Numbered from the stretch's first letter, positions 28,470-63,281 are shown. The stretch is 64,000 nt of DNA from Alphaproteobacteria bacterium (GCA_024402715.1 JAKSTF010000002.1:14230-78229); one strand, 5' to 3'. The notes: generated by a model from the letters alone, not told the origin. A program made the numbers and translations.

Positions 28470-28528
28470 TGTATTTGTAGTATATTTCTGTAGAAGTTGT
28501 GTGATGGTTGGAATAGGAGATTATTAGA

Positions 28529-32630: not shown

Positions 32631-32767
32631 TTAATTACCCGCATTTTATGCGGGTTTTCTTGTTTACAGATATTGTAAAAAATGGTATAATACCAACACA
32701 TGGGCGTATTGTTTTTTGTATTAAATTAATTGCAAAAGCATATTTAGCCCCCACAGGGAGAGTATTT

Positions 32768-42291: not shown

Positions 42292-42753
42292 TTATTCCAC
42301 GATAAATGAAATTTGGTTCATTGCATTGGTCGTGCAATGTGAAATTCCATCAGACATTTCATACCCGTTAACCAAAATAATTTTGGCCCAATCTGGTTTT
42401 ACGTATGCAAAATATTCACAATCACCATTGTTTAAATTCATTAAATTGATGGAAAAAGATAATCCGTCATATGATGATGTAATATTCCATCCCTTATCGC
42501 CAATTGGGGGAATGTCAGATTTTAATGCCCCGGCTTTGATTAAGTATTCAACAGATACCCCATCATAATTTCCGCGCATTCCAAATAATAATTTGGTGTC
42601 GTTGGCAATTTGTTCCAACTGTATGTCGGCCATTTTTCGTATATGGCTGTGGCGTATTGCATGGTACATGTGAACACTGGATGCTGTAATAATTCCTGCA
42701 ATTGCCATTGTCCCGATTAATTCGATCAAGGAACGGCCAGATTCGTTTTTCAT
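42292..42753 (-). CDS. type IV pilin / pseudopilin-like protein
   Basis: Leader MKNESG, then RSLIELIGTMAIAGII (Gly at -1, Glu at +5, hydrophobic helix), the class III signal. 153 aa with two Cys near the C-terminus. Confidence 0.75.
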   Translation of the reverse strand: MKNESGRSLIELIGTMAIAGIITASSVHMYHAIRHSHIRKMADIQLEQIANDTKLLFGMRGNYDGVSVEYLIKAGALKSDIPPIGDKGWNITSSYDGLSFSINLMNLNNGDCEYFAYVKPDWAKIILVNGYEMSDGISHCTTNAMNQISFIVE

Positions 42754-46276: not shown

Positions 46277-47465
46277 TAAATTTGTTTTTATTAATCATGA
46301 ATTTGGTTCCTCTATGACTGAGGTTGTTTTATCATTGGCGATTATTGCAATGGCAACACCGTTTTTATATGGTCAGATGCAACGGGCCAATGATACTGTT
46401 CGTGATGTATCTGTTGCCAATCAAATTGTATCCAGTCGTGATAATGTATTGAATTTTATTCGTTTAAATCAAGAATCGTGGCCTGATGTGGCACAAATAA
46501 ATTTATCATCAGATGATTTAAAAAATATGTCCAGTGATGCGGTTGCGGGATTTATTGATAAGTATAAAGTTAATGGCTTGTCTGTTACAGATGTTTATTT
46601 AGCATTTGATATTGATAATAATTATGTGCGTGCAAATAAAATAGCGCGTCGTATTGGAGATGCCGCGGCGGTTGTGATGACAGATGGAATCGTTTATGGA
46701 AATACGTGGGCGGTTGCAGTGCCAAATTTTGAACCAGGATATTTGGTTTACAAAATATCGCGTGATGTTTCGGAAATTGATTCGTCGCGTTATTTGCATC
46801 GCACGGCATCTGGCGATTTAAATTTAAATGTTATGCAACGTGATTTGAATATGTCTGGGCATAACATTGAAAATGTTGGAAAAATCGAAGCTCAAAGTGT
46901 TCGGGGCAAAGGTGTGATAACAACATTTGTTGAAACGGATGAATTAGTTGCAGGAGCCGTACATTTTTCATCGGGGGCTAATTTAGAAGGTGGAAATGCA
47001 CAATTTGAAAATATTCGTGTCTCTGGTGATGTGTCTGGTTTTCGCAATATATATGCAGATAATATGAATGGTGTGACGTATACAACATTGGGGCGTATTA
47101 TTGCAGATCGTGCAAATGTTTCAGAAACATTAAATGTTGCCAAAGATTTTGTTGTTAAATCTGATTATGTTCGAACAATTTCTGGGTTTTCCGGTATTAA
47201 GGCCAATCGTGTCGCAGTGCCGTTTTTACGGACAGAACAATTGTTGTTTTTTGAAAATTTTGGTTTGACGGTGTCCGGAGAATTGCTAAATTCAGCCACC
47301 GCCCCATTGAAAATCGGGACTTGGGTATATCCATCGACGTCACTGCCAAATTTTCACAGCATAACATTTTCACGGACCGAAATCCCAACCGTGCCACAGA
47401 AAGATGAATTTTACATTATAATGGGTGATAATTGGCAGTCATTCCAGCCGGAGAAATTGCAATGA
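46254..47465 (+). CDS. large pilin-like protein P2
   Basis: Leader ...NHEFG, then SSMTEVVLSLAIIAMATPFL (Glu at +5). Overlaps the P1 stop by 23 nt. 403 aa. Confidence 0.65.
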   Translation: MEKVAVINKFVFINHEFGSSMTEVVLSLAIIAMATPFLYGQMQRANDTVRDVSVANQIVSSRDNVLNFIRLNQESWPDVAQINLSSDDLKNMSSDAVAGFIDKYKVNGLSVTDVYLAFDIDNNYVRANKIARRIGDAAAVVMTDGIVYGNTWAVAVPNFEPGYLVYKISRDVSEIDSSRYLHRTASGDLNLNVMQRDLNMSGHNIENVGKIEAQSVRGKGVITTFVETDELVAGAVHFSSGANLEGGNAQFENIRVSGDVSGFRNIYADNMNGVTYTTLGRIIADRANVSETLNVAKDFVVKSDYVRTISGFSGIKANRVAVPFLRTEQLLFFENFGLTVSGELLNSATAPLKIGTWVYPSTSLPNFHSITFSRTEIPTVPQKDEFYIIMGDNWQSFQPEKLQ

Positions 47466-48769
47466 TTAAACAAAAATTTAATTTTTTGAAAAATAATTCA
47501 GATGCAGGAAATATGTTAATTGAATTATTGTTAAGTGTTGCGTTGGTTACGGTTATAATGCCATTTGTTATTCAATATCATCGTAGAACTGTGCGCCGTG
47601 CAGAAAATATTGCTATTACACAACAGATGGATGCTGTTCGTGTTGCATTGGAACGTTATATTGCACAAAATCGCGAACATTTATTGAATACTGTTGGCAA
47701 TACAATTACACGTGTAAATATGGATGCTTTGGCTGAATATGGCGCAGATATTCAACATAATGCGAATTATCAATTACGAATATTAAAATCAGGCACCGCA
47801 GATGGTCGTGCATCTTTACAGGGGGTGATTGTTTATAACAGTGATGATATCACCCCAATTCGAACCCGGGAAATTGTTGCGGTGGGTGGGCAAAATATTG
47901 GTTTTGTTGATGGAAAACGGACGTATGGTGCGTATGGTACGTGGCGTATGGATAATGTCGATTTAGGAATTGGTGGATTAAATGGTATTGTTAAAACCAC
48001 GACTGTAAATCAAGATAATGCATTATATTTGTGGCGGTCGCCATCAGATGATGCGGCGGATGCAACAATGAATGTCGCATTGAATTTGGGGCAACACGAT
48101 TTAAAAAACGTTTTATCATTAAATACAACAATGATGAATATAAATGATCGGTTAAAATTTGGTGCAGGTGTTGCTAATACGGTTGTTTTTCAAAACAGAA
48201 CCGCGATTGATTCTAATTATCAAACAAAAAATGCCAGTGTAAATGGTGTATTGTCTGCGGATGGACGCTCGATGGATGTTGCAAAATCTTTTAAATTGGA
48301 AGATGTCGGAAAATTTTCTGGTTTTAATGTTAGAAATTTATGGGTTTCAAAATTAACGTTACCAGGCTTTTCTGTTGACAGCAATTCGGATAAACCTGCA
48401 ATATTACGTATTAATGAAACATTGGATATGGTTTTGGGGCGTATAAATGCATTGATGGTGACCGTTGGTTTTTCCGGATCGGTTACCCCACGGTTGATTG
48501 TTCGTAATAAAATTTCTGATTCAATTAATCCGGATTATTATTGGGACATAGATAATGGAACTGCAAATTTTAATGATATGATATTATCTGAATTAAATCG
48601 AATGGCACCATTGGTTTTGAAACAAGAACAGGTGTCCGGATCTGATTCAACACGAATATTTTCATCTATATCATCAAATTCAAATGCCACAATTGCAGAT
48701 TTTGCCAATGCAATTACTGAAATTCAGGCCCGTGTGCGTGCAAAATATCGTTTGTTGAATTTAGAATAA
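47462..48769 (+). CDS. large pilin-like protein P3
   Basis: ATG at 47462 overlaps the P2 stop as ATGA, with GGAGAA SD. Leader MIKQKFNFLKNNSDAG, then NMLIELLLSVALVTVIMPFV (Glu at +5). Confidence 0.7.
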   Translation: MIKQKFNFLKNNSDAGNMLIELLLSVALVTVIMPFVIQYHRRTVRRAENIAITQQMDAVRVALERYIAQNREHLLNTVGNTITRVNMDALAEYGADIQHNANYQLRILKSGTADGRASLQGVIVYNSDDITPIRTREIVAVGGQNIGFVDGKRTYGAYGTWRMDNVDLGIGGLNGIVKTTTVNQDNALYLWRSPSDDAADATMNVALNLGQHDLKNVLSLNTTMMNINDRLKFGAGVANTVVFQNRTAIDSNYQTKNASVNGVLSADGRSMDVAKSFKLEDVGKFSGFNVRNLWVSKLTLPGFSVDSNSDKPAILRINETLDMVLGRINALMVTVGFSGSVTPRLIVRNKISDSINPDYYWDIDNGTANFNDMILSELNRMAPLVLKQEQVSGSDSTRIFSSISSNSNATIADFANAITEIQARVRAKYRLLNLE

Positions 48770-50750: not shown

Positions 50751-50843
50751 TACCCGTTAATAAATCCGGAATAATTTTATGTTTTTGGCTTTTTAAACCC
50801 CGCGTTTTATGATATAATGATACATAAAATATGGAGTGAGTCG

Positions 50844-53800
50844 ATGTTTTTTATGAAAAAAACTGTTAGTTTTCTGGCGTTTATGGCATGTTTTTCAAGT
50901 GTATTTGCTGTAACGGCACGGCCCAGTGTTGTGACAACTGTGGCATCGCGTTCAAACATGCCAAATTTTATAAACCCAAATAATCAGTTTAAATATACCA
51001 CCACAAATGGGCGTCCTGCCACGACGGTTACAACGACGGTGACGGGGACTACAAATTTGATGGATAATGCAGAATGCATCGACGCATATACCGAATGTAT
51101 AACCGCGGATGACGTATGTGGTGCAAATTTCGAAGAATGCACGACAACCGAATTATTTCATGGCCAAATGGCAAAATGTTCCAGTACATTATACCAATGC
51201 AAATCGGATGGTATTACCGCATTGTTTGGGACAAATTCTGTGACCGCGTTGGGTGCTGTAACCAACGGTACCGCCGGTAAAGAGGGTGCAACCTATACAT
51301 ATCCAACGGTTACCAGTATTATGGGACAACGTGTTGCGGGTGGTGCGATTTCGAATCGGTATGATACATCACAATGTGTAAAAAAATATACAAATTGTGT
51401 TCACAAAGATACCGTATGTGGTCCCGATTTTGAATTGTGTACAGGTATAAAAGAATTTAAAAAGCAAATGTCATTTTGTGCATCGACATTGGTCCGTTGC
51501 CCCAAAGAGGGTATAATTGCCCTGTTTGGACAAGATATTGATATAAACGATGATGGTTCGTTAAAGAGTAACACAAACGGAATTAAATTGGATGGTAAAG
51601 ACAGTCGTATTGGTCAAATGATTGATGACGGTGCGGCATTGGCGGCGAAAAACGCTGTTAATACCTGTTACAAGGTTGTAGACAGTTGTATTATTAGTGC
51701 CTGTAAAGATAATCCGTTCAAATGTAAGACCGATGTGTTTGTTTCTTTGACAGATGCAGTGGAACAGATAGAAAACAATTCTGAATATAATAGTTTGGCG
51801 GAAAAATATAATTCTTTGTTGAAACAAGAGTATTCATCGGATGTAACAACAAATAAAACGGTAGAAAAGTATATACGAAGCAAATGTTTGGATACAATTG
51901 GTGGTAATAAATATTGTCAATTGGTTGTTAAAGGGACGGCTAGTGCCAAACAAATTATAGATCCAGAAGAATTGGCTGATGATTATACAGAAGTTTTTGA
52001 TGATTTGTATAATGCACGTATGAATGCAGCGGCACATGAAAAAATTAATACATTGGCGGAACAATTTGATACCAAGGCCAAAAATAAATGCTATGAAACG
52101 ATTAAATCATGTGCAATGCGTTCGTGTGGTAATGGTAACGGTGCGGCATGTTATGCATCCGTATTTGGTACAGATGGTGTTACAAATGGCAGCATAAATG
52201 GAACAAAGTCATACAGCAATATTCAGGCTGGGTGCGAGGCAATCGTTAACACCGATCCGTATTGCATTTATTCAAAGGTTGACGAAAGTGGTAAAGGCAT
52301 AACATCAGATACGTTAAATACGTATGCGGATTCTTCTGCGTTTGAAATATTATTCCCAGCCTATGATGGTACAACAAAATCTGATCCGATTGGGGCGGTT
52401 GCAAAATTAAATGCGTCACTGTCATCGGCATTTAATGCATCGGCAATTGCACAAAAACGTAAACAGTGCATTAAGACCGCACAAAATTGTGTAAAATCAA
52501 TGTGTGGGGATGATTATGAAAATTGTTATCGTAATCGTACAGATGCTATGTCTAAGATCACAAGCACAAGTAAAAACGATTATAATGAAAGTATGAACAG
52601 GGTTGGTGGTGTATTGGATCGTACAATTGTTGTCGGTTTGTGTATGAATACGGTAAGAGATAGTGCAGCTTGCGAAGATCATTTGGCAATTAAATTGGCG
52701 GAAATATCTGCAACATATGCAAATAAAAATGCCGCAGACAGTTGGGGAAACAGCACAACAGTTCGTAATGGTTGGTTGGGTGCAGGTGCCTCGGATGGGG
52801 CAGAATATGATGAAAATGAAGCAAAGGAAGAGACGTCCGAAGAAAAAGCGGCTGAAAATTTATTTGCTGAAATTTTGGATGATATTGAAGTAGAAGTCCA
52901 GGCAAAATATAACGCAAAATTGACCAAGGAACAGAACGTTTGTTTGAAAAATAATGGTGGGGTCAGCGGTATTGATTCTGGAACATATATGTGGGCCAAA
53001 TTAAAAAATGGCAAGGTTCCGGATGGTTATTCAACAAATGGTTTGGTTGACACGGATTTGAGTGCATCAAATGATTTGTATGGTTCATTCTGTCGTGTGC
53101 GTGTTACAATGACATCAACCGATCCAAAGATTAAAAAATTCTTGGAAGGCAATTCTGCAAAAGCAACGCGGTATTTTGCGGTTGGTGATGCATTTGTCTG
53201 TGGATCATGGTTAACATCGCAGGATAAAGATGGAGAAGATGGAGAAGATGGAGATAGTGATCTTACTAAAATTGAAAAACTTGTGAAAGGTGATGTTATA
53301 TCCAGTTCCACAGAAAAACGTCAGGAAAGAAATAAAGTAATGGCGACGGCGATATCCGCTTTGGCTGGTGGTGTTGGTGGTGGCGTATTGGGTAATAAAA
53401 TCGGAAACGGTGATATTTTACCAAATTTGACCAGTAATAAGGCTGATAACAAAAAAATAAGTGACTGTAATAATTATGTAAATTACTTAAGTGGGGTTAG
53501 CAAAGACTCGTTACGTACTATCGTGGAATCTCGGTTGGATGCGTTGAACAAGCTTAATTCAGGATTTGGCGTAAAGTCTGAATGGGCAAACTTAGATAGT
53601 AGTTGTGCTAATAATAATAATAATAATAATATTACTGAGTGTGCTGCGAATCTTATTAAAGATGCCATGAATGGAATTAAATGTTCCAGTCTTGCTGAAC
53701 AAAAAGGTGTATTTAAAGGTAAATTAACTGGTGCACAATTTGGTACGGCCATTGGGGCAGCGGTTGGTTCGTTTGGGGCTGGTTTCGCCGCGTATAAAAT

Positions 53801-53951
53801 AGCGGATTCTAGCCAGCAAATAAAGAATGCTGAAGCCAAAGATGCCGCATGGGAAGAATTTATGGCGGAAATCGGTTCCAAAATCCGGTGCTATATCGGC
53901 ACGACCGAGGCCGGCGGTTACGGTGATACGGTAATGTTAACCGTTGAATAA
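50844..53951 (+). CDS. very large secreted Cys-rich protein, relative C (function unknown)
   Basis: About 1035 aa with signal peptide MFFMKKTVSFLAFMACFSSVFA and a short T/R-rich tract. Contains a duplicated six-Cys module, further C-x6-C-x4-C units, an acidic DGEDGEDGD stretch, an Asn7 run, and two Gly-zipper hydrophobic segments near the C-terminus. Confidence 0.8.
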   Translation: MFFMKKTVSFLAFMACFSSVFAVTARPSVVTTVASRSNMPNFINPNNQFKYTTTNGRPATTVTTTVTGTTNLMDNAECIDAYTECITADDVCGANFEECTTTELFHGQMAKCSSTLYQCKSDGITALFGTNSVTALGAVTNGTAGKEGATYTYPTVTSIMGQRVAGGAISNRYDTSQCVKKYTNCVHKDTVCGPDFELCTGIKEFKKQMSFCASTLVRCPKEGIIALFGQDIDINDDGSLKSNTNGIKLDGKDSRIGQMIDDGAALAAKNAVNTCYKVVDSCIISACKDNPFKCKTDVFVSLTDAVEQIENNSEYNSLAEKYNSLLKQEYSSDVTTNKTVEKYIRSKCLDTIGGNKYCQLVVKGTASAKQIIDPEELADDYTEVFDDLYNARMNAAAHEKINTLAEQFDTKAKNKCYETIKSCAMRSCGNGNGAACYASVFGTDGVTNGSINGTKSYSNIQAGCEAIVNTDPYCIYSKVDESGKGITSDTLNTYADSSAFEILFPAYDGTTKSDPIGAVAKLNASLSSAFNASAIAQKRKQCIKTAQNCVKSMCGDDYENCYRNRTDAMSKITSTSKNDYNESMNRVGGVLDRTIVVGLCMNTVRDSAACEDHLAIKLAEISATYANKNAADSWGNSTTVRNGWLGAGASDGAEYDENEAKEETSEEKAAENLFAEILDDIEVEVQAKYNAKLTKEQNVCLKNNGGVSGIDSGTYMWAKLKNGKVPDGYSTNGLVDTDLSASNDLYGSFCRVRVTMTSTDPKIKKFLEGNSAKATRYFAVGDAFVCGSWLTSQDKDGEDGEDGDSDLTKIEKLVKGDVISSSTEKRQERNKVMATAISALAGGVGGGVLGNKIGNGDILPNLTSNKADNKKISDCNNYVNYLSGVSKDSLRTIVESRLDALNKLNSGFGVKSEWANLDSSCANNNNNNNITECAANLIKDAMNGIKCSSLAEQKGVFKGKLTGAQFGTAIGAAVGSFGAGFAAYKIADSSQQIKNAEAKDAAWEEFMAEIGSKIRCYIGTTEAGGYGDTVMLTVE

Positions 53952-54257: not shown

Positions 54258-55253
54258 TTATGGTCTGCGATTTAATATACTGATAACAACCTGTTTAACG
54301 GTATCTGCTTCGGATGGTGTGCTTTCCGCTATCAATAATGTCAATGCAAATAATGTGGCACTATCTATAATATTTTGACCATTATTCCCATACAATATCT
54401 TGTTTTTATCCAAGAAATATAAAAAGCAACTGGCGCCGATACGTTTGTTTCCATCAACAAAACTGTGATTTTTTACGATTAAATATAGTAAATTTGCCGC
54501 TTTTTCTTCCAATGTTGGATACAAGTCTTTGCCATCAAATGTTTGATATATTTGACCGATGGAACTATAAAAACTTTCATCTTTGGGTTTTGCGAATACA
54601 TCACTGGCAAAATTTCCCTTCATTTTATCAACCACGGATAAAAATTCATCTGGGGGAATTACGATTGCGGTTGATTCTGTTTTTCCTTGGAAATCCAATG
54701 TTTTATGGTCAAAATCATCAAGCAAATTCAACCCCTTTACAAAATCATTCAGAACACGTGATACCTGTTGCGCCTGGTCAATGGTTTGTGCTTGATTTTC
54801 AATACTGCGACTCATTAAATCTAATGTTTTTTGCAACATTAACATCTTTGATTTTTGTTCGGATAACATCTGTTGATTTACAACATACCCATTTAACAAA
54901 TAATCTTTTAATGTTTTTGTTGCCCAGATACGAAATTGTGTTGCTGTTTTAGATTTTACACGATATCCCACAGACAGAATCATATCAAGGTTGTAATGCG
55001 AAATTTGACGAGAAACCCTGCGTTTCCCTTCTGAACGAACTATTAAGAAATCCTTAATAGTTGAATTTTCGTCCAATTCGCCTTCGGATATAATATTCTT
55101 AATATGCATATTTATATTAGGTATCGTCGTTCCAAACAATTTTGATATTGCGTCCTGGGTTAACCATACCGTGTCATCCTGAACACGAACATCAATTTGT
55201 GTTTGCCCGTTTTCAGCAATATATATAGCAATTTGATTATTTACATCTGTCAT
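54258..55253 (-). CDS. RhuM-family N-terminal domain fused to a Fic/Doc domain protein
   Basis: N-terminus ..LSVGYRVKSKTATQFRIWATKTLKDYL (RhuM-like). The C-terminus carries HSFVDGNKRIGA (Fic/Doc HxFx[DE]GN[GK]R motif). Confidence 0.8.
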   Translation of the reverse strand: MTDVNNQIAIYIAENGQTQIDVRVQDDTVWLTQDAISKLFGTTIPNINMHIKNIISEGELDENSTIKDFLIVRSEGKRRVSRQISHYNLDMILSVGYRVKSKTATQFRIWATKTLKDYLLNGYVVNQQMLSEQKSKMLMLQKTLDLMSRSIENQAQTIDQAQQVSRVLNDFVKGLNLLDDFDHKTLDFQGKTESTAIVIPPDEFLSVVDKMKGNFASDVFAKPKDESFYSSIGQIYQTFDGKDLYPTLEEKAANLLYLIVKNHSFVDGNKRIGASCFLYFLDKNKILYGNNGQNIIDSATLFALTLLIAESTPSEADTVKQVVISILNRRP

Positions 55254-55487: not shown

Positions 55488-56798
55488 TTACAAATTGTCT
55501 TTGATTAATTTCCATATTTTTTCGGTTTGCGCCTTTGATAAATTCCATGTATTTGTTAAATCTGACTTAATTTGATTTATCAATCCGGTTCCACTATCAA
55601 TATTGCCAGCCAATTTTTTTGCAATATCTTCGGTGCCATCAATAAAATATATGACCAAACAAATTGATAATAATGTTGAAATAAAACCCAAGTCCGTTGG
55701 GGTTGGAATATGTGTTTGTATATCAATCGGCATCAACCATGATAATAACGCCCCACAAAATCCAATTGATACCGCCAATGATACATAATATAACGATGCA
55801 TTTATGAATTTTTTTATAACAGATTCCAATTTAAATTTATCTGTTTTAAATAAGCCCATAAAACTGTTTATAATATTGCCAACAATTCCATCATATTTTG
55901 TTTTTGCCGTTGTTTCTGCAATTGCGGTCAATGGTAATAATAAAATTGATAAAAACAAATCCAATATTACCCCCAATGAAATAAATGCAAATTTAAATGC
56001 GGCCAAAATAAATAAAACAACAAATGCAAAACCAATTAAAAATGTAAAACCGCTGTTGCCGATACCAAAACGCATCCATTGAAATCCGGTGGCAACGCCC
56101 GTGTACAAAAATCCGGTTAATCGCGTTGGAATACACATTAAACCGGCCGCCGCATCCGGGGCAATTAACATTTGTTGAGATGTGTTTGCAGCGGCATATT
56201 GATATATTGCATTGCAGGTATCTGGAATTTGTATCCCGGCAAAGTTTGTTACCGTATTTAAAATCATGTCAGATACATATACGCCAAATAATATTATTGG
56301 GGTTGCAACCGCCATAAATATTTTTGCGGGACCAAAGCGTAATATTATGATGCAAATGGCAATTTTTACCCCTTGGCGGACAATTGATTGTAATAAATCC
56401 ATGATATTACTGCTGCTTTGCATCATTTTATATGTTTCGCCCATTATCCAAAATGCGAACATGGTAACCATAAACAATATTGCAAATCTAAATAATGATA
56501 TATCCAGCATGTGGCCCACCAACGAAATGCCGTTCATCAATGCCAGGCCAACCTTGGCCTCGATCGGGACAAAATCATCAACCAATTGCACGTGTTGGAT
56601 ATTTTTTCCAAATTGATCTAAATCAGTGGATAAATTTGATGTAATATTCGTGATTGTTGTTTGATCAATTATATTAGTGTTGTCGCCACTTTCGGAATTT
56701 TGTGGCGCATTATCGCCAAATGCATTACACAGTCCGGCGTTTATTATAAATATACCACAAATAATAATTTTAAAAAATTTTGTTAAATACTGTTTCAT
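55488..56798 (-). CDS. polytopic membrane protein M1, VirB6/TrbL-like (tentative)
   Basis: 436 aa with a signal peptide and at least 6 TM segments. Central LLLPLTAIAETTAKTKYDG segment, analogous to the P-L-x..W/T region of VirB6. Last gene of a 4-gene coupled operon. Confidence 0.45.
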   Translation of the reverse strand: MKQYLTKFFKIIICGIFIINAGLCNAFGDNAPQNSESGDNTNIIDQTTITNITSNLSTDLDQFGKNIQHVQLVDDFVPIEAKVGLALMNGISLVGHMLDISLFRFAILFMVTMFAFWIMGETYKMMQSSSNIMDLLQSIVRQGVKIAICIIILRFGPAKIFMAVATPIILFGVYVSDMILNTVTNFAGIQIPDTCNAIYQYAAANTSQQMLIAPDAAAGLMCIPTRLTGFLYTGVATGFQWMRFGIGNSGFTFLIGFAFVVLFILAAFKFAFISLGVILDLFLSILLLPLTAIAETTAKTKYDGIVGNIINSFMGLFKTDKFKLESVIKKFINASLYYVSLAVSIGFCGALLSWLMPIDIQTHIPTPTDLGFISTLLSICLVIYFIDGTEDIAKKLAGNIDSGTGLINQIKSDLTNTWNLSKAQTEKIWKLIKDNL

Positions 56799-56804
56799 TT
56801 TATT

Positions 56805-58238
56805 TTATGAATTAATCCATCCCCGATTTTTTGCAAATGCAGTAATATATTTTTGTGCCTGATTATATGTGTTTTTACCCAATGTTTTTAATGCACCGCC
56901 AAAATCAAAATTGTCAGATGCAGGTTTAACTAAAACATCATCAATTTTTGGCGATATTACATAGTAATATAAAAAGAATATCAAAATCATAATCATTATG
57001 AATTCCCATCCATCTGACATAAAATCAAATGCATGCGGATATTTACGTTCAACCATTGCACGTTGTGCAGTAAAACATGTTATAAATTTATCTTTGTCTA
57101 ATACCCCAGATACGCTTGCCTTTTCTTCACAGGTTTTGAATACATTTACAACAGATAATGTTTGATTGTCTGGATTTTGAATATTTTGTCCAAATGTTGG
57201 TGGAAAAATAGCCGTATATCCGTCCATCGGGGCTGGAAAATATGCATCGGCTGCAACGGTTATTGTTGCGTATGTAATTATTGTTTTAAGGGTTATTGAA
57301 ATTATGCTTAGGGCCGAGGTTACAATCATATTTATTGCACCATTAATTGCGCCTGAGGCAACTGACCATGTTTTGTCCCATGCCGCCGCTGCCAATAAAA
57401 ATGGTAAAAATATTATTATAAATATTAATTTGAAAATAATTGTTAAAATTTGAAAAAATAAATCAAATCCGATTATTATGAACATAATAACCAATGTTAA
57501 TCCCGCCATCCATGTAAATATCCCGCCACCCATACCCATCCATGCATAATTCATCAATGAAAAACCACCTGCGACACCGGCCAACATAACGCTGTTTAAA
57601 TTTCCGATAACGCACATGAATGATTGAAATACAGGTCCCATAACATCGTTTGCAGCGTTTGTTAATGCATAGCATGATGCACCCTCTATTGCGCCCGTTG
57701 CCATCATTGACAATACACTGCCAATATATAATACGGGGGTAATTAAAACGTATGATACTGCACGTAATATTGTGTTGCCACCCACGCCTAAAACACCAAT
57801 TAATGCCCCAACGATTAAAATGCGAATTAATAATTTACGAATCGTTTCAAACCATTTGCTAAAATCTATTTTCTTTTCATTTGTGTCCAATTTGGTTGTT
57901 GTTTTTGCAGCATCTAAGATGTATTGGCCAGAATATATAAATAAGTAAATACCAAATCCAATCGCCATTAAAACCCACAGGGCGTTTACAATTGTAGACC
58001 AAAATTTTTCTGTGGCATCACCCAATATGCCAAATGTTTTTTCCAATATTTCACATAAAAAGCAACCATTTGTATTTGCAATATTACCGTTTGCCCCAAC
58101 GGCGTTCAAAAAACGGTCCATGCTGGAATATGTAATTGCACCACCGCCAATTGATGTGTAAACATACCATATCGCAATGCTGATAGTGATTATCGGTAAA
58201 ATGGCTTTGACTAAAAAAGAAATAATTACTTTTTTCAT
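56805..58238 (-). CDS. polytopic membrane protein M2, VirB6/TrbL-like (tentative)
   Basis: 477 aa with an N-terminal C-x2-C (GCFLCEILEKTF), many TM segments, and IFLPFLLAAAAWDKTW. The start overlaps the M3 stop (ATGA). Confidence 0.45.
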   Translation of the reverse strand: MKKVIISFLVKAILPIITISIAIWYVYTSIGGGAITYSSMDRFLNAVGANGNIANTNGCFLCEILEKTFGILGDATEKFWSTIVNALWVLMAIGFGIYLFIYSGQYILDAAKTTTKLDTNEKKIDFSKWFETIRKLLIRILIVGALIGVLGVGGNTILRAVSYVLITPVLYIGSVLSMMATGAIEGASCYALTNAANDVMGPVFQSFMCVIGNLNSVMLAGVAGGFSLMNYAWMGMGGGIFTWMAGLTLVIMFIIIGFDLFFQILTIIFKLIFIIIFLPFLLAAAAWDKTWSVASGAINGAINMIVTSALSIISITLKTIITYATITVAADAYFPAPMDGYTAIFPPTFGQNIQNPDNQTLSVVNVFKTCEEKASVSGVLDKDKFITCFTAQRAMVERKYPHAFDFMSDGWEFIMIMILIFFLYYYVISPKIDDVLVKPASDNFDFGGALKTLGKNTYNQAQKYITAFAKNRGWINS

Positions 58239-59413
58239 GGTTTGATTTTTTTAATAATATCGTTAATTTTCTGACCAAAATTTTTTACGTTATCAGGTAA
58301 TCTGAACATATCAGTGGCCATATTTTCATTCATTTTTGTATCCGCCGATACTTTGAATACATCCAATATCATTTTTTGAATTGATGGAATCTTTTTTGAA
58401 ATAAAATCTAAAACATATACCAATACGATTGTGCTGAAAATTCCCAATATCGCCAGATTGTTTTCTGATAATTGGGCATTAAATATATCGCCTGATAATA
58501 TTTTTGACATTAAATCTGATGCTGATACACCCTGGACGGTAAAGAATTTTGCAATTATTACCATAATTATTGTATATGAAATTACGGCCGCCACCAGGCC
58601 AACAATGGCATTAATAACACGTTTGAAATATCCCGTCCCAAATTCTTTGCCAATCCCAGCCATCCAAGATGGAACGTCTTTGGCACCATTAAACGCGACC
58701 ATTGATAACGATAACGGAAAGAAAAATGAAAAATATGCCATGGCGATTATAATGTCTACGAAATAAAAACAATAACGTAAGAACAATTCAAAAAATTTAT
58801 ACGATATAAACAAACCGATAAAAAATATAATTATATGTTTAATAAACATTCCGATACTTAACATGGCGGACCATGAAAACGCCTGATCCATTATTGCAAT
58901 GCCCAATTTAATAAACGATTGAAACATTGTAACAGATGATTTCATTAACGTTATTATTGTGTCCCGTAATTGTGGTCGGAAAAATCCGTCCTGGGATATT
59001 TTTTCTGGTTGATATGTTACGCGTTCATTAACGGTTGCCGGGTCGGTTTGCAACATTGAATCTGTATAAATTAATGCGATTTGTGCGGCCGGTTCAAATG
59101 TTATGGTTGTTAAAAAACGTGGGAATATTACGCCGGTACTAAGTAAAGCGAATGCAACAATTGCATTTATAAATACGCGTTGTAATGAATCTTTGTACCA
59201 TGTATCTTGGGCGTTGTTTTCACGAATGTTTTTCCATACGACGTTTAAAATATAAAATGCCAATAATATGATAAACAATATCATGCAAATAATTGCCATT
59301 TTATGGTATATTGCCGCCGCCATCGTTGAAACGATTTGAAACAACCGGTCAAATACAGCACAGCCCCAGCACTGAACCGATGAATCAATCAAAATGTTTG
59401 CCAAATCTGTCAT
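58235..59413 (-). CDS. polytopic membrane protein M3, VirB6/TrbL-like (tentative)
   Basis: 392 aa with N-terminal QCWGCAVFDRLFQIVSTMAAAIY, closely matching M5 SCWSCQMFSDILAVLSKIAANAY. Also FFFPLSLSMVAFNGAKDVPSW. Confidence 0.45.
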   Translation of the reverse strand: MTDLANILIDSSVQCWGCAVFDRLFQIVSTMAAAIYHKMAIICMILFIILLAFYILNVVWKNIRENNAQDTWYKDSLQRVFINAIVAFALLSTGVIFPRFLTTITFEPAAQIALIYTDSMLQTDPATVNERVTYQPEKISQDGFFRPQLRDTIITLMKSSVTMFQSFIKLGIAIMDQAFSWSAMLSIGMFIKHIIIFFIGLFISYKFFELFLRYCFYFVDIIIAMAYFSFFFPLSLSMVAFNGAKDVPSWMAGIGKEFGTGYFKRVINAIVGLVAAVISYTIIMVIIAKFFTVQGVSASDLMSKILSGDIFNAQLSENNLAILGIFSTIVLVYVLDFISKKIPSIQKMILDVFKVSADTKMNENMATDMFRLPDNVKNFGQKINDIIKKIKP

Positions 59414-59415
59414 TG

Positions 59416-60675
59416 TTATTTTTTAATCCATCCTAATGCTTTGCCAATGGTTACCGCGTTGTTTTTTATAGTATTTGCAAAATTTTTTGTGTCGGCAGTT
59501 GCTGTTTTATACATTGCATCTGCATTTGAACCGGCAAATTTTAATAATATTTGGCGGGTTTTATTGAATAATTCATACATTATATAAATTGTTAATATTG
59601 CCGTTATCCATATAATTGTATGCGAACCAAATGAAAAATTGTTCCCCGATGCATCGGCAAACAGTGTATTAAGCCAGCCTAGCATAGAATTGGCAATGGC
59701 AATATTTATCCCCAAAATAATTGCACATGCAATCATTGTGATTATTAATTGTTGTAATGCTTTGACAATGCCAGAAAATGCCGGCCAAACATCAAACCAA
59801 CCATCACTATTTTTAGCGGTAACAACCCATGTTAATACCTGAAATGGATATAATATTAATGCCATCCCCATTTCAAATATGGCCCCAATTATCAATAATG
59901 CCATAAATATATTACATCCAACAAATGCAATAATTAATAATATACCCGTTAATATGTTCATAAAATCTGTCCCGCCGTGAAAGATAGGGGTGAACAGACC
60001 TGTTAAACCATTAATCACAAAATCTAAACCATTTTTAACAATTTGGTTGTTCGCGTGTGATAAATCGGATACTGGTTGCAATAAATAATTACAAGATGCT
60101 TGAGATATCCAGCCATTTGATATAATTTCAGGTGGACATACTGTGGAACTGGGGGTTGGGATGTTTATGACGGATAAAACACCATTCGTATAAATGGCTC
60201 CGAATTGTAAAAATGGGTTAATCAAAACGTCTGTTACAAATGTTGGTTTGATTTGTAATAATACAACGGTCGCAATTATTGCACGTATACCTGGACGCAA
60301 AATGTTTGATGCGATTTTTTCCGGTTTTTCACCTGATATCATTTCACCGCCACCGGAAAAGCCGGCAAATTCAACCCATGTTTTTGGAAAATACATTTTT
60401 ATTAAATATAGTGTAATAGATAAAGCAAAAAATCCCCATATTAACATCTGTATAATTCCGATACCCGATGTTGGTTTTACAAAAAATTCGTATCCACCGG
60501 TCGCAACCATCATCATGGCATCCAATACCATTGAAACAAATGGTGCCAAATTTAATGCATCAACAAAATCCCAATCCGCCAATGCTGTGGCCGGGATCAT
60601 AACAATTGATGTTATAATCAACATAGGAACGCGATGGGATAGTATCCAAATAAATAAATGTTGAACCAGATTCAT
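59416..60675 (-). CDS. polytopic membrane protein M4, VirB6/TrbL-like (tentative)
   Basis: About 420 aa from the ATG at complement 60675 (MNLVQHLF...). The ORF-track start at 60807 would overlap M5. Contains ILYPFQVLTWVVTAKNSDGW. Confidence 0.45.
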   Translation of the reverse strand: MNLVQHLFIWILSHRVPMLIITSIVMIPATALADWDFVDALNLAPFVSMVLDAMMMVATGGYEFFVKPTSGIGIIQMLIWGFFALSITLYLIKMYFPKTWVEFAGFSGGGEMISGEKPEKIASNILRPGIRAIIATVVLLQIKPTFVTDVLINPFLQFGAIYTNGVLSVINIPTPSSTVCPPEIISNGWISQASCNYLLQPVSDLSHANNQIVKNGLDFVINGLTGLFTPIFHGGTDFMNILTGILLIIAFVGCNIFMALLIIGAIFEMGMALILYPFQVLTWVVTAKNSDGWFDVWPAFSGIVKALQQLIITMIACAIILGINIAIANSMLGWLNTLFADASGNNFSFGSHTIIWITAILTIYIMYELFNKTRQILLKFAGSNADAMYKTATADTKNFANTIKNNAVTIGKALGWIKK

Positions 60676-60696
60676 ATTTGTATATTTTTTATCAAT

Positions 60697-60726
60697 TATA
60701 TCACATTTAAGGCAAAATGTGATATA
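60697..60726. promoter_or_regulatory. perfect 12-bp-arm palindrome in the M4/M5 divergent promoter region
   Basis: tatatcacattt-aaggca-aaatgtgatata, centred in the 62-bp gap between the M4 start (60675) and the M5 start (60738). Confidence 0.7.
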
Positions 60727-60737
60727 CTTTAACATAA

Positions 60738-62693
60738 ATGAATGTGTTAAAAAAATTTTGGGCTGTTTTTTTGTCGTTTTTGCCGTTTTCTGCGGGGGCA
60801 ATTGCACCTGTTGTTATTGGGGGGATTGCTGGGTTGGGGCTGATCGCAGGTTTTTCATTGTATCGTACGTATGTGCCTGCCGATATGTCCAGTGCATTAA
60901 ATTTTTTTACCAGTTGTTGGTCATGCCAAATGTTTTCTGATATATTGGCGGTTTTATCTAAAATTGCTGCAAATGCATACACCGGTATTGGAATGGTTTT
61001 AGTTCCTATATCTGCTGGGTTGTGTGCTGTATGGTTCGCATGGAATATATTTTCGGGTTTTTTAAACGCAAAAATTGATGACCCGTGGCGGGTTACTGAA
61101 ATGTTTACAACACAGTTAATAAAGTTAGGGGTTGTATTGGCGTTATTATTAGCCCCATTACCACGTTTGATGTCAAATATTGTTTTTGAACCGTTGTTTA
61201 ATGTTGGATTGTCTGTAAATCATGTTATTACGGATAATGATTCATATGCAAATTGTCTTGTCGCAACTGCGCTGGTCGATGCGGTGTCGGCTGATGGAGA
61301 AAAATTGGATGATTTTGGGGCATATCCCGTGCGTTTGCGGCATAATTTGGCATGTGAAATTGGTAATGTTCATCAAATGACAGGATTGGGAATGACGGTT
61401 GGGTGGACAATGTTGAATATGGCATTTGATGCGGATTATATGCATAAAATTGCCGATACAGTTCCAATTTTTCCAAACGTTGTAATGTTTTTTGTGGGAT
61501 TGGCGATAATGGTATTGTTTTTCTGGGCAATGTTACCTGTGCCAATGTATTTTTTGGAAATATTTTTAGAGTTAACGTTGGATTTAATAATGTTGCCTTT
61601 GGCATTTTTTTCGTGGTTGTTTAAAGGGTGGAAAATATTTCCCGGAATGGGCGCTAAAGATATTCGGGGTATCGTAAATGATGTTGTTAAAAATACTGTT
61701 GGAATTGCAATGGTGTGTGTATTCATAACATTTGCGATTATGTTGTTAAATGCGATGTTTGGGACGTGGAATGGGGCCGATACATTGCAGGTCGCATTAC
61801 AACAAAACGATTCGAAATTGTTGATAGATGGTATGAATATGCGTAATGACAGTTTGTTGGTCATTGTAATGTTAGGGATATTTATTGCCATGTTTATGAC
61901 GATGATACCAACATTGGTTAAAACATTATTTGCAAATGTTGCAATTCCAGAAAAGATGTTTAATAACGCAATATCAGATTTTAAAATTTTGGCGGATAAG
62001 GTTAAAACGTGGATTGATAAGGCACGTGGTATCAATAATACCAATACCACGGGTGGTGGAACGGATGGTGGAACATCTGGTGGTGGCGGTGGCGGCGGTA
62101 ATTCCAGCGGTGGTACACAAAATAACATTGTATTTTTAAATTGGTTGCAAAGTGATGGACGGGCATATATTAATACCGGATTTGTTCCGGATGGAACATC
62201 AGGCATTCGTTTGTATGTTGATGGTGATTCGTCCCGAACGGCGATGCGGGCATTTGTAGGAACCTGTACATCACGAACAGATTCGAATTCTAAATGGGGA
62301 ATTGGGGCCACCGCAGATATATTTTTTGGATGGAATGGTGTCGAATATGGCACGTCACCTGTTGCGGTTGGGGGACGTGTAAAAATAGATGTTAATTATA
62401 AAAATGATAACTTATGCAAAGTTGATGATACAACCATATTTAATATTACAGATTCGTTAAATCCCGGTGGTTCGGGTTGGCCTGCGTATATATTTGGATA
62501 TAATGCAAATGGATATGATTCTGATTCGGTTTGTTGGGATAGAATTTATCAAGTTGTATTTACCCGTGGTGGGCGTGTTGTTCATGATTTTAGGCCGGCA
62601 CGGCGCATTTCTGATAATGTGTTGGGAATGTATGATGTTGAAAGTGGACAGTTTTTTGTAAATTCTGGCAGCGGTTCATTTGTCGCAGGATAA
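60738..62693 (+). CDS. polytopic membrane protein M5 (VirB6/TrbL-like, tentative) fused via poly-Gly to a C-terminal beta-rich domain
   Basis: 651 aa with a signal peptide, the C-W-x-C motif, a TM bundle with LIMLPLAFFSWLFKGW, the linker TTGGGTDGGTSGGGGGGGNSSGG, and a soluble domain of about 190 aa ending NSGSGSFVAG. Confidence 0.5.
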   Translation: MNVLKKFWAVFLSFLPFSAGAIAPVVIGGIAGLGLIAGFSLYRTYVPADMSSALNFFTSCWSCQMFSDILAVLSKIAANAYTGIGMVLVPISAGLCAVWFAWNIFSGFLNAKIDDPWRVTEMFTTQLIKLGVVLALLLAPLPRLMSNIVFEPLFNVGLSVNHVITDNDSYANCLVATALVDAVSADGEKLDDFGAYPVRLRHNLACEIGNVHQMTGLGMTVGWTMLNMAFDADYMHKIADTVPIFPNVVMFFVGLAIMVLFFWAMLPVPMYFLEIFLELTLDLIMLPLAFFSWLFKGWKIFPGMGAKDIRGIVNDVVKNTVGIAMVCVFITFAIMLLNAMFGTWNGADTLQVALQQNDSKLLIDGMNMRNDSLLVIVMLGIFIAMFMTMIPTLVKTLFANVAIPEKMFNNAISDFKILADKVKTWIDKARGINNTNTTGGGTDGGTSGGGGGGGNSSGGTQNNIVFLNWLQSDGRAYINTGFVPDGTSGIRLYVDGDSSRTAMRAFVGTCTSRTDSNSKWGIGATADIFFGWNGVEYGTSPVAVGGRVKIDVNYKNDNLCKVDDTTIFNITDSLNPGGSGWPAYIFGYNANGYDSDSVCWDRIYQVVFTRGGRVVHDFRPARRISDNVLGMYDVESGQFFVNSGSGSFVAG

Positions 62694-62768: not shown

Positions 62769-63281
62769 ATGAAGCAATTTCCGATTCTTTATTGGCCACA
62801 CAAGACAACTGGTGATTCGGATTATCAGATGTCCCGCAGAATCATAAATGCCAATACTGGTGTTATGCCGGATGTTATTATGGGGGATATTGATTTGGCG
62901 GCTGTGTTAAATGAAAATCCAAATGCGGCCATTTATTATCCTGTTTTTTGTGAATCAACCGGATGGTGGGGGGAATTGTTGGGCAGTGATGCCGTTGTCA
63001 CTGATAAAGTTATAATTTCCTCAGAATGTCAATTGATGGTTATTGAAAAACAGGCGGTTGTGCATAAACATATGGGGGCAAACCACTTGTTGGCAGCAGA
63101 AATTCACCCCAGCAGTGGCTTTTTCAAAAAAATGAATTCTGGCATTGCAACCGTTGCAGATATGTTGGCAACAGATACAGGCACAATATTAGCATTATTT
63201 TCAGGTAAGAATCAAACCCAGTTCGTAAATATTTTAGAATCGACTGGGAATTCTTATTTAGGGTGTATTGGACGGTATTAA
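62769..63281 (+). CDS. hypothetical cytoplasmic protein
   Basis: 170-aa ORF with no signal peptide or recognised motif. Confidence 0.45.
   Translation: MKQFPILYWPHKTTGDSDYQMSRRIINANTGVMPDVIMGDIDLAAVLNENPNAAIYYPVFCESTGWWGELLGSDAVVTDKVIISSECQLMVIEKQAVVHKHMGANHLLAAEIHPSSGFFKKMNSGIATVADMLATDTGTILALFSGKNQTQFVNILESTGNSYLGCIGRY

What the first reader, a model, noticed from the sequence alone, without database searches (positions are those of the whole stretch)
55488..62693. Array of five paralogous polytopic membrane proteins resembling a rickettsial-style VirB6/TrbL expansion, without other T4SS genes in view
M4-M3-M2-M1 (minus strand) are packed with 2-nt, ATGA-overlap and 6-nt junctions, and M5 is divergent. 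All five share the same plan. A short periplasmic N-terminus comes first; in M2, M3 and M5 it carries C-x2-C, and M3 QCWGCAVFDRLFQIVSTMAAAIY and M5 SCWSCQMFSDILAVLSKIAANAY are near-identical in pattern. Two TM helices around a charged loop follow, then a variable loop. The plan ends with a TM bundle carrying a Pro-Leu/Phe ... Trp/Thr segment (M2 FLPFLLAAAAWDKTW; M5 MLPLAFFSWLFKGW; M4 LYPFQVLTWVV; M3 FFPLSLSMVAF..SW). That segment is reminiscent of VirB6 ..GPLFIALAMFQATRRFTEAW. Tandem arrays of 4-5 divergent VirB6 paralogs are an established hallmark of the Rickettsiales rvh type IV secretion system. Here the array lacks flanking virB3/virB4 and sits next to a Fic-domain gene. Either this is a scattered T4SS of a lineage where it has not been described, or it is a new membrane-protein family.
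Basis: partly seen in the sequence, partly recalled or inferred. Interest (0 to 1): 0.75.

Follow-up and report, generated by a model that had tools for sequence, protein, structure and literature searches.

The report
Five-gene array of divergent VirB6-like proteins
A gut bacterium with a tiny genome (Candidatus Enterousia) keeps a conserved block of five very old, very diverged copies of VirB6, the inner-membrane base protein of type IV secretion machines, which standard annotation misses and which lies far from any other recognisable secretion gene.

Summary
Five intact polytopic membrane genes lie at 55488-62693, with the stated junctions and Cys motifs. The window is a chromosomal piece of Candidatus Enterousia (order Rs-D84, gut Alphaproteobacteria, genomes under 1 Mb). 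The same five genes in the same order occur in 75 of 80 related species genomes, under purifying selection (dN/dS 0.07-0.23).

Pfam and NCBIfam find nothing in them. A profile of their distant relatives, all unnamed proteins from gut Alphaproteobacteria, matches all five paralogs (98.7-100%). It also matches nine plasmid VirB6 proteins (95.8%, E 7e-9; controls 3.2% or less). AlphaFold models of M3 and M2 both rank R388 TrwI/VirB6 highest by Foldseek probability, but with weak scores.

So these are members of an undescribed, highly divergent branch of the VirB6/TrbL superfamily. No other T4SS gene is in the 64 kb window or within 10 kb in 80 genomes. A solitary, strongly conserved VirD4 coupling protein is encoded elsewhere in at least three related genomes.

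VirB4 and VirB8-11 could not be searched genome-wide. A scattered T4SS-like machine is therefore the best-supported reading, but it is unproven. The Fic gene is strain-specific and unrelated.

The parts
55488..56798 (-). M1: VirB6-like paralog, 436 aa. Has an N-terminal signal or anchor, no CxxC, and a conserved loop Cys pair C195/C222. Last gene of the M4-M3-M2-M1 operon.
   Evidence: ORF; hydropathy; family HMM A4core E 6.7e-21; hhalign to the family core 99.5%; Cys conservation; dN/dS 0.16-0.23.
56805..58238 (-). M2: VirB6-like paralog, 477 aa. Carries CxxC (C59/C62), a loop Cys pair C189/C209 and a second pair C370/C388.
   Evidence: More than 500 homologs with no Pfam domain. A4core E 1e-24; hhalign 99.5%. 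AF2 model pLDDT 61, with TrwI chains as the highest-probability Foldseek hits. An apparent ortholog sits in the L006 array (79 bits).
58235..59413 (-). M3: the smallest VirB6-like paralog, 392 aa. It has no N-terminal anchor and starts almost directly with the CWGC motif. It overlaps M2 by ATGA.
   Evidence: 935 homologs with no Pfam domain. The profile search of 1.84 billion representatives gave only 103 hits. AF2 model pLDDT 76; Foldseek top hits are TrwI/VirB6, prob 0.96. hhalign to the family core 99.7%.
59416..60675 (-). M4: VirB6-like paralog, first gene of the four-gene operon. The longest ORF runs to 60807; the likely start is Met45 at 60675 (419 aa), which gives a signal-peptide-like N-terminus. 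It has no CxxC and a loop Cys pair C224/C239.
   Evidence: a gene caller gives 439 aa. Ortholog N-termini have a median of 38 residues before DALNLAPF, against 82 in the longest ORF. A4core E 1.4e-20; hhalign 98.7%.
60676..60737 (.). Short divergent intergenic region between M4 and M5 (about 62 nt if M4 starts at 60675). Presumed to hold the two divergent promoters.
   Evidence: Inferred from the start-site comparison; the L003 relative has 72 nt here. Promoter-like hexamers with a TG extension occur on both strands (60723-60695 minus, 60700-60728 plus), but the count in the region equals the chance expectation.
60738..62693 (+). M5: divergently transcribed VirB6-like paralog, 651 aa. The core is about aa 1-435, with CxxC C60/C63 and a loop pair C173/C206. 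It is followed by a Gly-rich linker and a domain of about 190 aa of unknown fold, found only in this clade.
   Evidence: hhalign to the family core 100%, E 4e-46. M3-M5 profile match 98%. The extension is present only in the window, L010 and L011; the other 70-odd orthologs are about 430 aa. The extension has no Pfam, phage or PDB match.
62769..63281 (+). p170: a conserved soluble 170-aa protein directly downstream of M5. Possible accessory component; membership uncertain.
   Evidence: Adjacent to M5 in 78 loci at 70-97% identity. No Pfam, NCBIfam or PDB-sequence match. The adjacency could simply reflect the strong general synteny of these genomes.

Best explanation
M1-M5 are five anciently duplicated members of a previously unrecognised, highly divergent branch of the VirB6/TrbL superfamily.

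Architecture. Each paralog keeps the VirB6 plan:
- a short periplasmic N-terminus, with a CxxC in three of the five;
- two membrane helices;
- a helical periplasmic loop pinned by a conserved Cys pair (in four of the five; M3 lacks it);
- a bundle of hydrophobic helices carrying the conserved Pro...Trp segment.

Expression. The genes form a core-genome module. M4-M3-M2-M1 have overlapping or abutting stops and starts, so they are probably translationally coupled and made in fixed proportion. M5 is read divergently.

Most likely function (inferred). Together they form the inner-membrane base or translocation platform of a chromosomal, extremely scattered T4SS-like apparatus. It would work with the solitary, highly conserved VirD4 coupling ATPase of this lineage. 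Its role would be exchange of macromolecules with partner cells, on which these metabolically crippled bacteria are predicted to depend.

Speculative extension. R388 VirB6 is a homopentamer, and arrays of five recur here, so the five paralogs may assemble 1:1:1:1:1 into a hetero-pentameric base.

Shown: the genes, their conservation, selection, paralogy, remote homology to VirB6, and the co-occurring VirD4. Inferred: operon coupling, topology, T4SS function, pentamer.
For: Homology
- A family core profile built from 24 distant members, none from the window, matches the M1-M5 ortholog profiles at 99.5, 99.5, 99.7, 98.7 and 100%. By HMMER the E-values are 1e-20 to 5e-63.
- The same profile matches an alignment of nine plasmid VirB6 proteins at 95.8%, E 7e-9, over 219 columns (VirB6 56-274). 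LLPL..W aligns with GPlFI..F/W.
- Reversed and block-shuffled controls give 3.2% or less.
- The link survives removal of all members that hit Pfam TrbL (92.4%). Thirty pooled Enterousia sequences alone reach 57.7%, E 1e-4.
- Seven of 25 distant relatives hit Pfam PF04610, two above the gathering score, in the colinear C-terminal bundle.

Fold
- AF2 models of M3 (pLDDT 76) and M2 (pLDDT 61) both give TrwI/VirB6 chains the highest Foldseek probability (0.96-0.97) among 350,542 PDB chains.
- The chain identity was confirmed.

Conservation
- Same order in 75 of 80 species loci.
- ATGA overlaps dominate the junctions.
- dN/dS is 0.07-0.23.
- Five columns are invariant across 95 orthologs of all five paralogs.

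T4SS link
- VirD4 (Pfam T4SS-DNA_transf, TrwB_AAD_bind, TraG-D_C) is 70-92% identical across the lineage.
- It occurs in the same genomes as the array: JAAVBP010000004.1 carries both, as do JAFVFD01 and L047.
- A TrbC/VirB2 pilin gene lies 10 kb from a family member in another lineage.

Fivefold count
- Five family members are in the window, five in L006 and five in L103.
- The VirB6 pentamer is described in PMC9259494.

Lifestyle
- Rs-D84 lacks standard transporters and most biosynthesis and is predicted to be partner-dependent (PMC12306168).
Against: - No Pfam or NCBIfam VirB6/TrbL/TraG_N hit on any of the five. Only 1 of 95 orthologs touches TrbL, at E 0.01.
- Direct profile matches of the individual M families to VirB6 are weak, 0.3-10%. 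Membership therefore rests on intermediates.
- Foldseek E-values are 0.09-0.3 and TM-scores 0.28-0.48, and the M2 model is low-confidence.
- No VirB4, VirB8-11, VirB2 or VirB3 was found in the window, in 1.74 Mb around the array, or in 1.04 Mb around VirD4.
- VirD4 is never adjacent to the array except loosely in L047.
- VirD4 could not be shown in the window's own genome. The contig extending the left edge shows SspB, a radical-SAM-like gene and Nth instead.
- L104 and L009 show four detectable members, not five.
- No expression or interaction data exist.
Confidence: 0.55

Rival explanations
1. The proteins derive from VirB6 but no longer belong to a secretion machine. They would be a stand-alone set of inner-membrane channels or transporters, for example for nutrient, lipid or DNA uptake, standing in for the standard importers this lineage lacks. 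The lone VirD4 would then be functionally unrelated or serve something else.
For: No other T4SS gene lies near the array or near VirD4 in about 2.8 Mb of related sequence. The context is always housekeeping genes. Rs-D84 genomes lack standard sugar, amino-acid and peptide transporters and are described as rich in unexplained membrane proteins (PMC12306168). The family is so diverged that the curated VirB6 models fail.
Against: To my knowledge no VirB6-family protein works outside a T4SS. VirD4 is retained at 70-92% identity in genomes under 1 Mb, which argues for a working partner channel. A VirB2/TrbC gene lies near a family member in a sister lineage. Five co-conserved paralogs fit a structural assembly better than five separate transporters do.
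Confidence: 0.25
2. The resemblance to VirB6 is convergent, coming from hydrophobic helices and composition. The five proteins and their relatives would be an unrelated new membrane-protein family.
For: No direct Pfam or NCBIfam hit. Single-family profile matches to VirB6 are 10% or less. Foldseek E-values are not significant on their own. A spurious membrane-protein family (FAM70) scores better than TrbL in the family-wide Pfam scan.
Against: The family core against VirB6 gives 95.8%, while reversed or shuffled controls give 3.2% or less. The result holds when the members that hit TrbL are removed. The alignment is colinear over 219 columns and the conserved Pro motif is in register. Two relatives pass the Pfam TrbL gathering score. 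Two independent models both rank the only solved VirB6 highest by probability.
Confidence: 0.12
3. The array is a decaying remnant of an integrated conjugative element or plasmid T4SS.
For: VirB6 genes usually live on mobile elements. An accessory RhuM-Fic gene with low GC sits beside M1.
Against: The locus and gene order are the same in 75 of 80 species, with intact ORFs under purifying selection. No integrase, relaxase or repeats are nearby. There is no homolog in 72,556 plasmids. The Fic gene is confined to one species.
Confidence: 0.03

Closest known systems
VirB6/TrbL family (Pfam PF04610), e.g. TrwI of plasmid R388 (PDB 7O3V, 8RT9, 8RTD) and VirB6 of Agrobacterium
   Same: Polytopic inner-membrane protein with two N-terminal membrane helices, a helical periplasmic region and C-terminal hydrophobic helices carrying a conserved Pro-containing segment followed by Trp. 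Profile-profile homology runs through the family core (95.8%). TrwI gives the highest-probability fold matches.
   Different: Not detected by PF04610 or the NCBIfam models. Adds an N-terminal CWxC motif and loop disulfide Cys pairs. Present as five paralogs rather than one gene. Chromosomal core-genome location with no virB neighbours. No plasmid relatives.
Rickettsiales rvh T4SS, with its tandem RvhB6a-e (VirB6) array (PMC2653234; hallmarks listed in PMC11077975)
   Same: Tandem array of four to five extremely diverged VirB6 paralogs in a reduced alphaproteobacterial genome. T4SS genes are scattered among housekeeping genes. VirD4 is retained.
   Different: The Rickettsia array directly follows rvhB3-rvhB4a, and RvhB6 proteins are 670-1150 aa with a recognisable TrbL domain. 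Here the proteins are 390-480 aa, apart from a clade-specific M5 tail, TrbL is not recognised, and no B3/B4 is adjacent. virD4 is solitary rather than in a B8-B11-D4 cluster. The host lineage is Rs-D84, not Rickettsiales. Whether the two arrays share a common origin was not tested, because no RvhB6 sequences were available.
Similar unnamed arrays in other uncultured gut Alphaproteobacteria (loci L006, L009, L103, L104)
   Same: Same family: CWxC, the loop Cys pair and the LLPL..W motif. Four to five tandem paralogs in a housekeeping context. All are annotated as hypothetical proteins.
   Different: The proteins are often larger (up to 868 aa) with charged C-terminal tails. Some members still touch Pfam TrbL. 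Only M2 has a clear one-to-one counterpart (L006 514 aa, 79 bits), so it is unclear whether the arrays are orthologous or independent expansions.
F-type TraG N-terminal domain (PF07916) and ComB6 of Helicobacter (VirB6 analogues)
   Same: Polytopic inner-membrane T4SS components thought to be functional equivalents of VirB6.
   Different: No sequence match at E up to 1. These were considered from general knowledge only.

Membership tests
VirB6/TrbL superfamily (PF04610) | Significant match to curated VirB6/TrbL models (Pfam PF04610; NCBIfam TrbL/VirB6 models) | tested here: not met
   No hit at E up to 1 for M1-M5. One of 95 orthologs hits at E 0.0099, below the cut-off.
VirB6/TrbL superfamily (PF04610) | Demonstrable sequence homology to bona fide VirB6 proteins | tested here: met
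   The homology is transitive. Family core against nine plasmid VirB6 proteins: 95.8%, E 7e-9. Core against M1-M5: 98.7-100%. Controls 3.2% or less. Robustness checks hold. Direct single-family matches reach only 0.3-10%; the pooled M sequences reach 57.7%.
VirB6/TrbL superfamily (PF04610) | VirB6 fold as in TrwI (seven long helices, two of them inserted in the membrane) | tested here: inconclusive
   TrwI chains have the highest Foldseek probability for both models (0.96-0.97). However, E is 0.09-0.3, TM-scores are 0.28-0.48, and model pLDDT is 76 and 61.
VirB6/TrbL superfamily (PF04610) | Polytopic plan with a large periplasmic loop and a conserved Pro...Trp hydrophobic segment | tested here: met
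   Hydropathy. Conserved loop Cys pairs, which imply a periplasmic location. An invariant Pro across 95 orthologs. The motif aligns with GPlFI of VirB6. The Trp itself is offset by two positions in the alignment, and M1 lacks it.
VirB6/TrbL superfamily (PF04610) | Encoded with other T4SS genes (virB2-B4, B8-B11, D4) | tested here: not met
   None in the 64 kb window. None within 10 kb in 80 genomes except a virD4 in L047. virD4 lies elsewhere in the same genomes. The rest of each genome was not searchable.
Rickettsiales rvh T4SS | Multicopy tandem VirB6 | tested here: met
   Five paralogs, four in tandem and one divergent.
Rickettsiales rvh T4SS | Array directly downstream of rvhB3-rvhB4; virD4 at the end of a B8-B9-B10-B11 cluster | tested here: not met
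   The flanks are L31/p170 on one side and UvrD or Fic on the other. virD4 is solitary between rsmE and sspB or accC.
Rickettsiales rvh T4SS | Duplicated RvhB4, RvhB8 and RvhB9; no VirB5 | not testable with these tools
   Whole genomes could not be fetched. Only about 2.8 Mb around two anchor genes was scanned.
Rickettsiales rvh T4SS | Organism belongs to Rickettsiales | tested here: not met
   The 98%-identical locus is from Candidatus Enterousia sp.. NCBI places the genus in Alphaproteobacteria incertae sedis. GTDB places it in order Rs-D84 (PMC12306168). Some NCBI MAG titles say 'Rickettsiales'. No phylogeny was run here.
Integrative/conjugative element T4SS | Relaxase, integrase, patchy distribution and plasmid relatives | tested here: not met
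   No such genes in the window. The locus is fixed in 75 of 80 species. No plasmid match.

The most novel reading that the evidence does not exclude
The five paralogs form an obligate hetero-pentameric VirB6 base, one copy of each. It would belong to a stripped-down, non-canonical T4SS-like conduit that lacks a recognisable VirB4 and outer-membrane core and is driven by the lone VirD4. Enterousia, an obligate partner-dependent gut bacterium, would use it to take up or exchange macromolecules with other cells. The multi-copy VirB6 of Rickettsiales would then be another instance of the same heteromeric design, either inherited or convergent.
Probability: 0.12. Interest if true: 0.85.

Novelty: new variant of a known kind. 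Interest (0 to 1): 0.62.

Why it matters
Multi-copy VirB6 has been treated as a signature oddity of the Rickettsiales rvh system, and why several copies are kept in shrinking genomes is still unexplained. This finding offers a second, independent set of genomes. It is widespread in human and livestock guts and has hundreds of sequenced variants. These genomes keep five ultra-diverged VirB6-like genes in fixed order plus a lone VirD4, within less than 1 Mb of DNA.

That makes three things testable:
- The heteromer hypothesis, using co-evolution analysis and multimer modelling.
- The minimal composition of a T4SS, once whole genomes are searched.
- How Enterousia, which lacks ordinary importers and most biosynthesis, might interact with partner cells.

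The family also exposes a blind spot in annotation. Pfam, NCBIfam and PGAP label every member checked as hypothetical, so T4SS surveys of gut metagenomes would miss it.

Tried and rejected
- Direct Pfam and NCBIfam scans of M1-M5 and of 95 orthologs gave no usable TrbL, VirB6 or TraG_N signal.
- The M3 profile against PDB sequences gave nothing.
- hhalign of the M3 profile, or of any M family, against single TrwI or R751 TrbL sequences gave 0.1-0.8%. A signal appeared only with a nine-sequence VirB6 alignment and the broad family core.
- tblastn of M3 and of a TrbL-positive relative against 72,556 plasmids gave no match.
- Weak VirB11 hits near the array turned out to be RarA/MgsA-type AAA ATPases.
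- I inferred from synteny that virD4 lies just outside the window's left edge, because the window starts inside sspB as in L106-L109. A same-strain contig shows sspB, a 319-aa radical-SAM-like gene and nth instead, so that inference was rejected.
- A scan around 80 metagenomic virD4 loci found no other T4SS gene and no family member.
- The M5 C-terminal domain and p170 have no Pfam, phage or PDB-sequence match.
- The promoter and terminator scan was no better than chance.
- The Fic gene as a possible effector clue was rejected as strain-specific.


Full report
**What is in the sequence**

The five ORFs exist as described:

| Gene | Coordinates | Strand | Length |
|---|---|---|---|
| M1 | 55488-56798 | - | 436 aa |
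| M2 | 56805-58238 | - | 477 aa |
| M3 | 58235-59413 | - | 392 aa |
| M4 | 59416-60807 | - | longest ORF |
| M5 | 60738-62693 | + | 651 aa |

The junctions are a 2-nt gap (M4/M3), an ATGA overlap (M3/M2) and a 6-nt gap (M2/M1). Comparison with 80 orthologs puts the real M4 start at Met45, position 60675. That leaves a divergent intergenic region of about 62 nt.

All five share one hydropathy plan: an N-terminal anchor that M3 lacks, two membrane helices, a loop of 70-95 residues, a double hydrophobic span of about 50 residues, two more hydrophobic helices, and a basic tail.

The conserved cysteines are as follows:
- CxxC is 100% conserved in M2, M3 and M5.
- A loop Cys pair is 100% conserved in M1, M2, M4 and M5.

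Conserved cysteine pairs in these segments suggest that they face the periplasm. This is an inference.

**Organism and context**

The window carries an rRNA operon and housekeeping genes. M3 is identical to a protein of a MAG labelled 'Alphaproteobacteria bacterium'. A 98%-identical locus belongs to Candidatus Enterousia sp..

Enterousia belongs to GTDB order Rs-D84. Its genomes are 0.75-1.0 Mb, it lacks respiration, most biosynthesis and standard importers, and it is predicted to be an obligate symbiont or parasite of other gut cells (PMC12306168).

No T4SS family was found by Pfam in the window ORFs of 90 aa or more that were scanned (a few short or spurious ORFs were not), nor with R388 and R751 T4SS proteins as phmmer queries. 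The RhuM-Fic/DOC gene next to M1 is present only in this species and its 98% relative, so it is an accessory insertion.

**Conservation**

- In 80 species-representative genomes that carry an M3 ortholog, 75 loci show M5(-) M4 M3 M2 M1(+) in exactly this order. The other five lack only terminal genes.
- Junctions are mostly 4-nt or 1-nt overlaps.
- dN/dS against the two closest species is 0.07-0.23 for every gene.
- A soluble 170-aa protein (62769-63281) and rpmE always follow M5.

The block is therefore a core-genome module under purifying selection, not a mobile-element remnant. There are no plasmid homologs.

**Are the five paralogs?**

Single-sequence comparison shows only M3-M5 clearly. 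Profiles of about 80 orthologs each give these matches, all colinear:

| Pair | hhalign probability |
|---|---|
| M3-M5 | 98% |
| M1-M4 | 88% |
| M1-M2 | 77% |
| M2-M5 | 74% |

A profile of 24 distant relatives from other lineages ('A4core') matches the five families at these levels:

| Family | hhalign probability |
|---|---|
| M1 | 99.5% |
| M2 | 99.5% |
| M3 | 99.7% |
| M4 | 98.7% |
| M5 | 100% |

As an HMM it scores the five window proteins at E 1e-20 to 5e-63 and scores no other window ORF. Five columns are invariant across 95 orthologs of all five paralogs. The paralogy is real and very old.

**Is it VirB6/TrbL?**

Pfam and NCBIfam give nothing for the five, and only 1 of 95 orthologs touches TrbL, at E 0.01.

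The M3 profile searched against 1.84 billion representatives finds only 103 proteins. Of the 25 most distant full-length ones, seven hit PF04610, two above the gathering score. The hits fall in the C-terminal hydrophobic bundle, colinear with the M3 match.

These relatives share a CWxC...F...F..S motif, a loop Cys pair and an LLPL....W.FP segment. All those that carry a source name are 'hypothetical protein [Alphaproteobacteria bacterium]'.

I built an alignment of nine annotated plasmid VirB6 proteins, including TrwI. The results were:
- hhalign of the family core against it gives 95.8%, E 7e-9, over 219 columns (VirB6 56-274), with the Pro motif in register.
- Reversed and block-shuffled controls give 3.2% or less.
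- The link holds without the members that hit TrbL (92.4%).
- Thirty pooled Enterousia sequences alone reach 57.7%, E 1e-4.
- Individual M families against VirB6 reach only 0.3-10%.

On the structural side, the AF2 model of M3 (pLDDT 76) and the weaker model of M2 (pLDDT 61) both give TrwI/VirB6 chains the highest Foldseek probability in the PDB (0.96-0.97). E-values are about 0.1-0.3 and TM-scores 0.28-0.48. The chain identity was confirmed.

Taken together, I place the family inside the VirB6/TrbL superfamily as a new, strongly diverged branch, with confidence of about 0.8. I note that membership rests on intermediates and on a fold match that is weak by itself.

**Other T4SS genes**

One Enterousia locus (L047) has a 749-aa VirD4-like gene a few kb from the array. 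Searching with it showed the following:
- The protein is 70-92% identical across the lineage. It carries the T4SS-DNA_transf, TrwB_AAD_bind and TraG-D_C domains, and NCBI names it a type IV coupling protein.
- It is always solitary among housekeeping genes, in the order TPR, rluB, rsmE, virD4, then sspB or accC.
- It sits in the same genomes as the array. JAAVBP010000004.1 carries both about 85 kb apart, and MAG JAFVFD01 has them on two contigs.

No VirB4, VirB8-11, VirB2 or VirB3 was detected in 1.74 Mb around the arrays or in 1.04 Mb around 80 metagenomic virD4 loci. In a sister lineage a TrbC/VirB2 pilin gene lies 10 kb from a family member.

Whole genomes could not be fetched, so the presence of VirB4 and the outer-membrane core is untested. 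VirD4 could not be confirmed in the window's own genome. The window begins inside sspB, which abuts virD4 in several relatives, but a same-strain contig shows other genes there.

**Similar arrays elsewhere**

Other uncultured gut alphaproteobacterial lineages carry tandem arrays of the same family, again among housekeeping genes:

| Locus | Detectable members | Sizes (aa) |
|---|---|---|
| L006 (GC 28%) | five | 557, 678, 730, 514, 858 |
| L103 | five | not listed |
| L104 | four, plus an unassigned 365-aa gene | not listed |
| L009 | four | not listed |

Only M2 has a clear counterpart, the L006 514-aa protein. Whether the arrays are orthologous is therefore open.

**Interpretation**

R388 VirB6 forms a pentamer that makes the inner-membrane base of the T4SS stalk (PMC9259494). 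Rickettsia keeps five RvhB6 paralogs, and multicopy RvhB6 is listed as an rvh hallmark (PMC2653234; PMC11077975).

The best-supported reading is that M1-M5 are structural subunits of an inner-membrane VirB6-type platform. They would be produced in fixed proportion from a coupled operon and would work with the lineage's VirD4 in a scattered T4SS-like apparatus. That fits a partner-dependent lifestyle.

A hetero-pentamer is an attractive but untested extension. The main rival is a VirB6-derived membrane family that has left the T4SS context. Convergence and a mobile-element remnant are unlikely.

**Novelty and score**

The family is unannotated and invisible to the curated models, yet it belongs to a known superfamily and resembles a known phenomenon, the rvh multicopy VirB6. 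I rate it a new variant of a known kind, with interest 0.62. It is surprising to T4SS and Rickettsiales specialists and opens a tractable comparative data set. The functional claim still depends on a whole-genome search that I could not run.

Noticed in passing
window 16776-18983 (-), 32648-34978 (+), 50817-53951 (+): Three large paralogous secreted proteins (735, 776 and 1044 aa). Each has a Ser/Thr/Asn/Arg-rich N-terminal region and repeated Cys motifs of the type C-x3-Y-x2-C-x2-x-C...C-x-C. None has a Pfam or NCBIfam hit. The 735-aa and 776-aa ones have orthologs in 60 and 34 of the related loci, and in many relatives the 735-aa ortholog lies only about 3 kb from M1.
   Followed up: partly
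window 42292-42753 (-) and 44918-48769 (+): A 153-aa protein with a type IV prepilin-like N-terminus (GRSLIELIGTMAIAG), followed by three tandem 400-450-aa proteins with pseudopilin-like hydrophobic N-termini. All lack Pfam hits. This may be a divergent type II secretion or type IV pilus-like set.
   Followed up: no
window 54258-55253 (-): A RhuM-Fic/DOC fusion gene in a low-GC stretch (0.33), inserted between M1 and the 1044-aa gene. It is found only in this species and the 98% relative L010, so it is accessory.
   Followed up: yes
window about 62040-62693 (C-terminal 220 aa of M5): A Gly-rich linker plus a domain of about 190 aa, appended to M5 only in the window species, L010 and L011. It has no Pfam, phage or PDB-sequence match. 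Its location (cytoplasmic or exported) and role are unknown.
   Followed up: partly
window 62769-63281 (+): A 170-aa soluble protein that always lies between M5 and rpmE in 78 loci (70-97% identity). It has many invariant Trp, Gly and Cys residues and no match in Pfam, NCBIfam or PDB sequences.
   Followed up: partly
L047 3425-5674; L099, L101, L106-L109 10001-12274: A solitary virD4 (T4SS coupling protein) is conserved at 70-92% identity across the Enterousia lineage. It is always wedged between rsmE and sspB or accC, with no other T4SS gene within 10 kb.
   Followed up: yes
window 27075-29431 (+): A low-GC stretch (0.30 at 28-30 kb) just after the 5S rRNA gene. It holds three ORFs (215, 102 and 300 aa) with no Pfam hit, and the 215-aa and 300-aa products look related to each other. 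It may be a small island.
   Followed up: no
L110 8519-9478 (just beyond the window's left edge in the same strain): A 319-aa protein with a CxxxCxxC-like radical-SAM-type motif (CWYNCHHCC) and no Pfam hit on record. It sits between sspB and nth, where relatives have virD4.
   Followed up: no
L008 1-75: In a sister gut alphaproteobacterial lineage, a TrbC/VirB2-type pilin gene (Pfam PF04956) lies 10 kb from a VirB6-like family member. It is cut off by the locus end.
   Followed up: no
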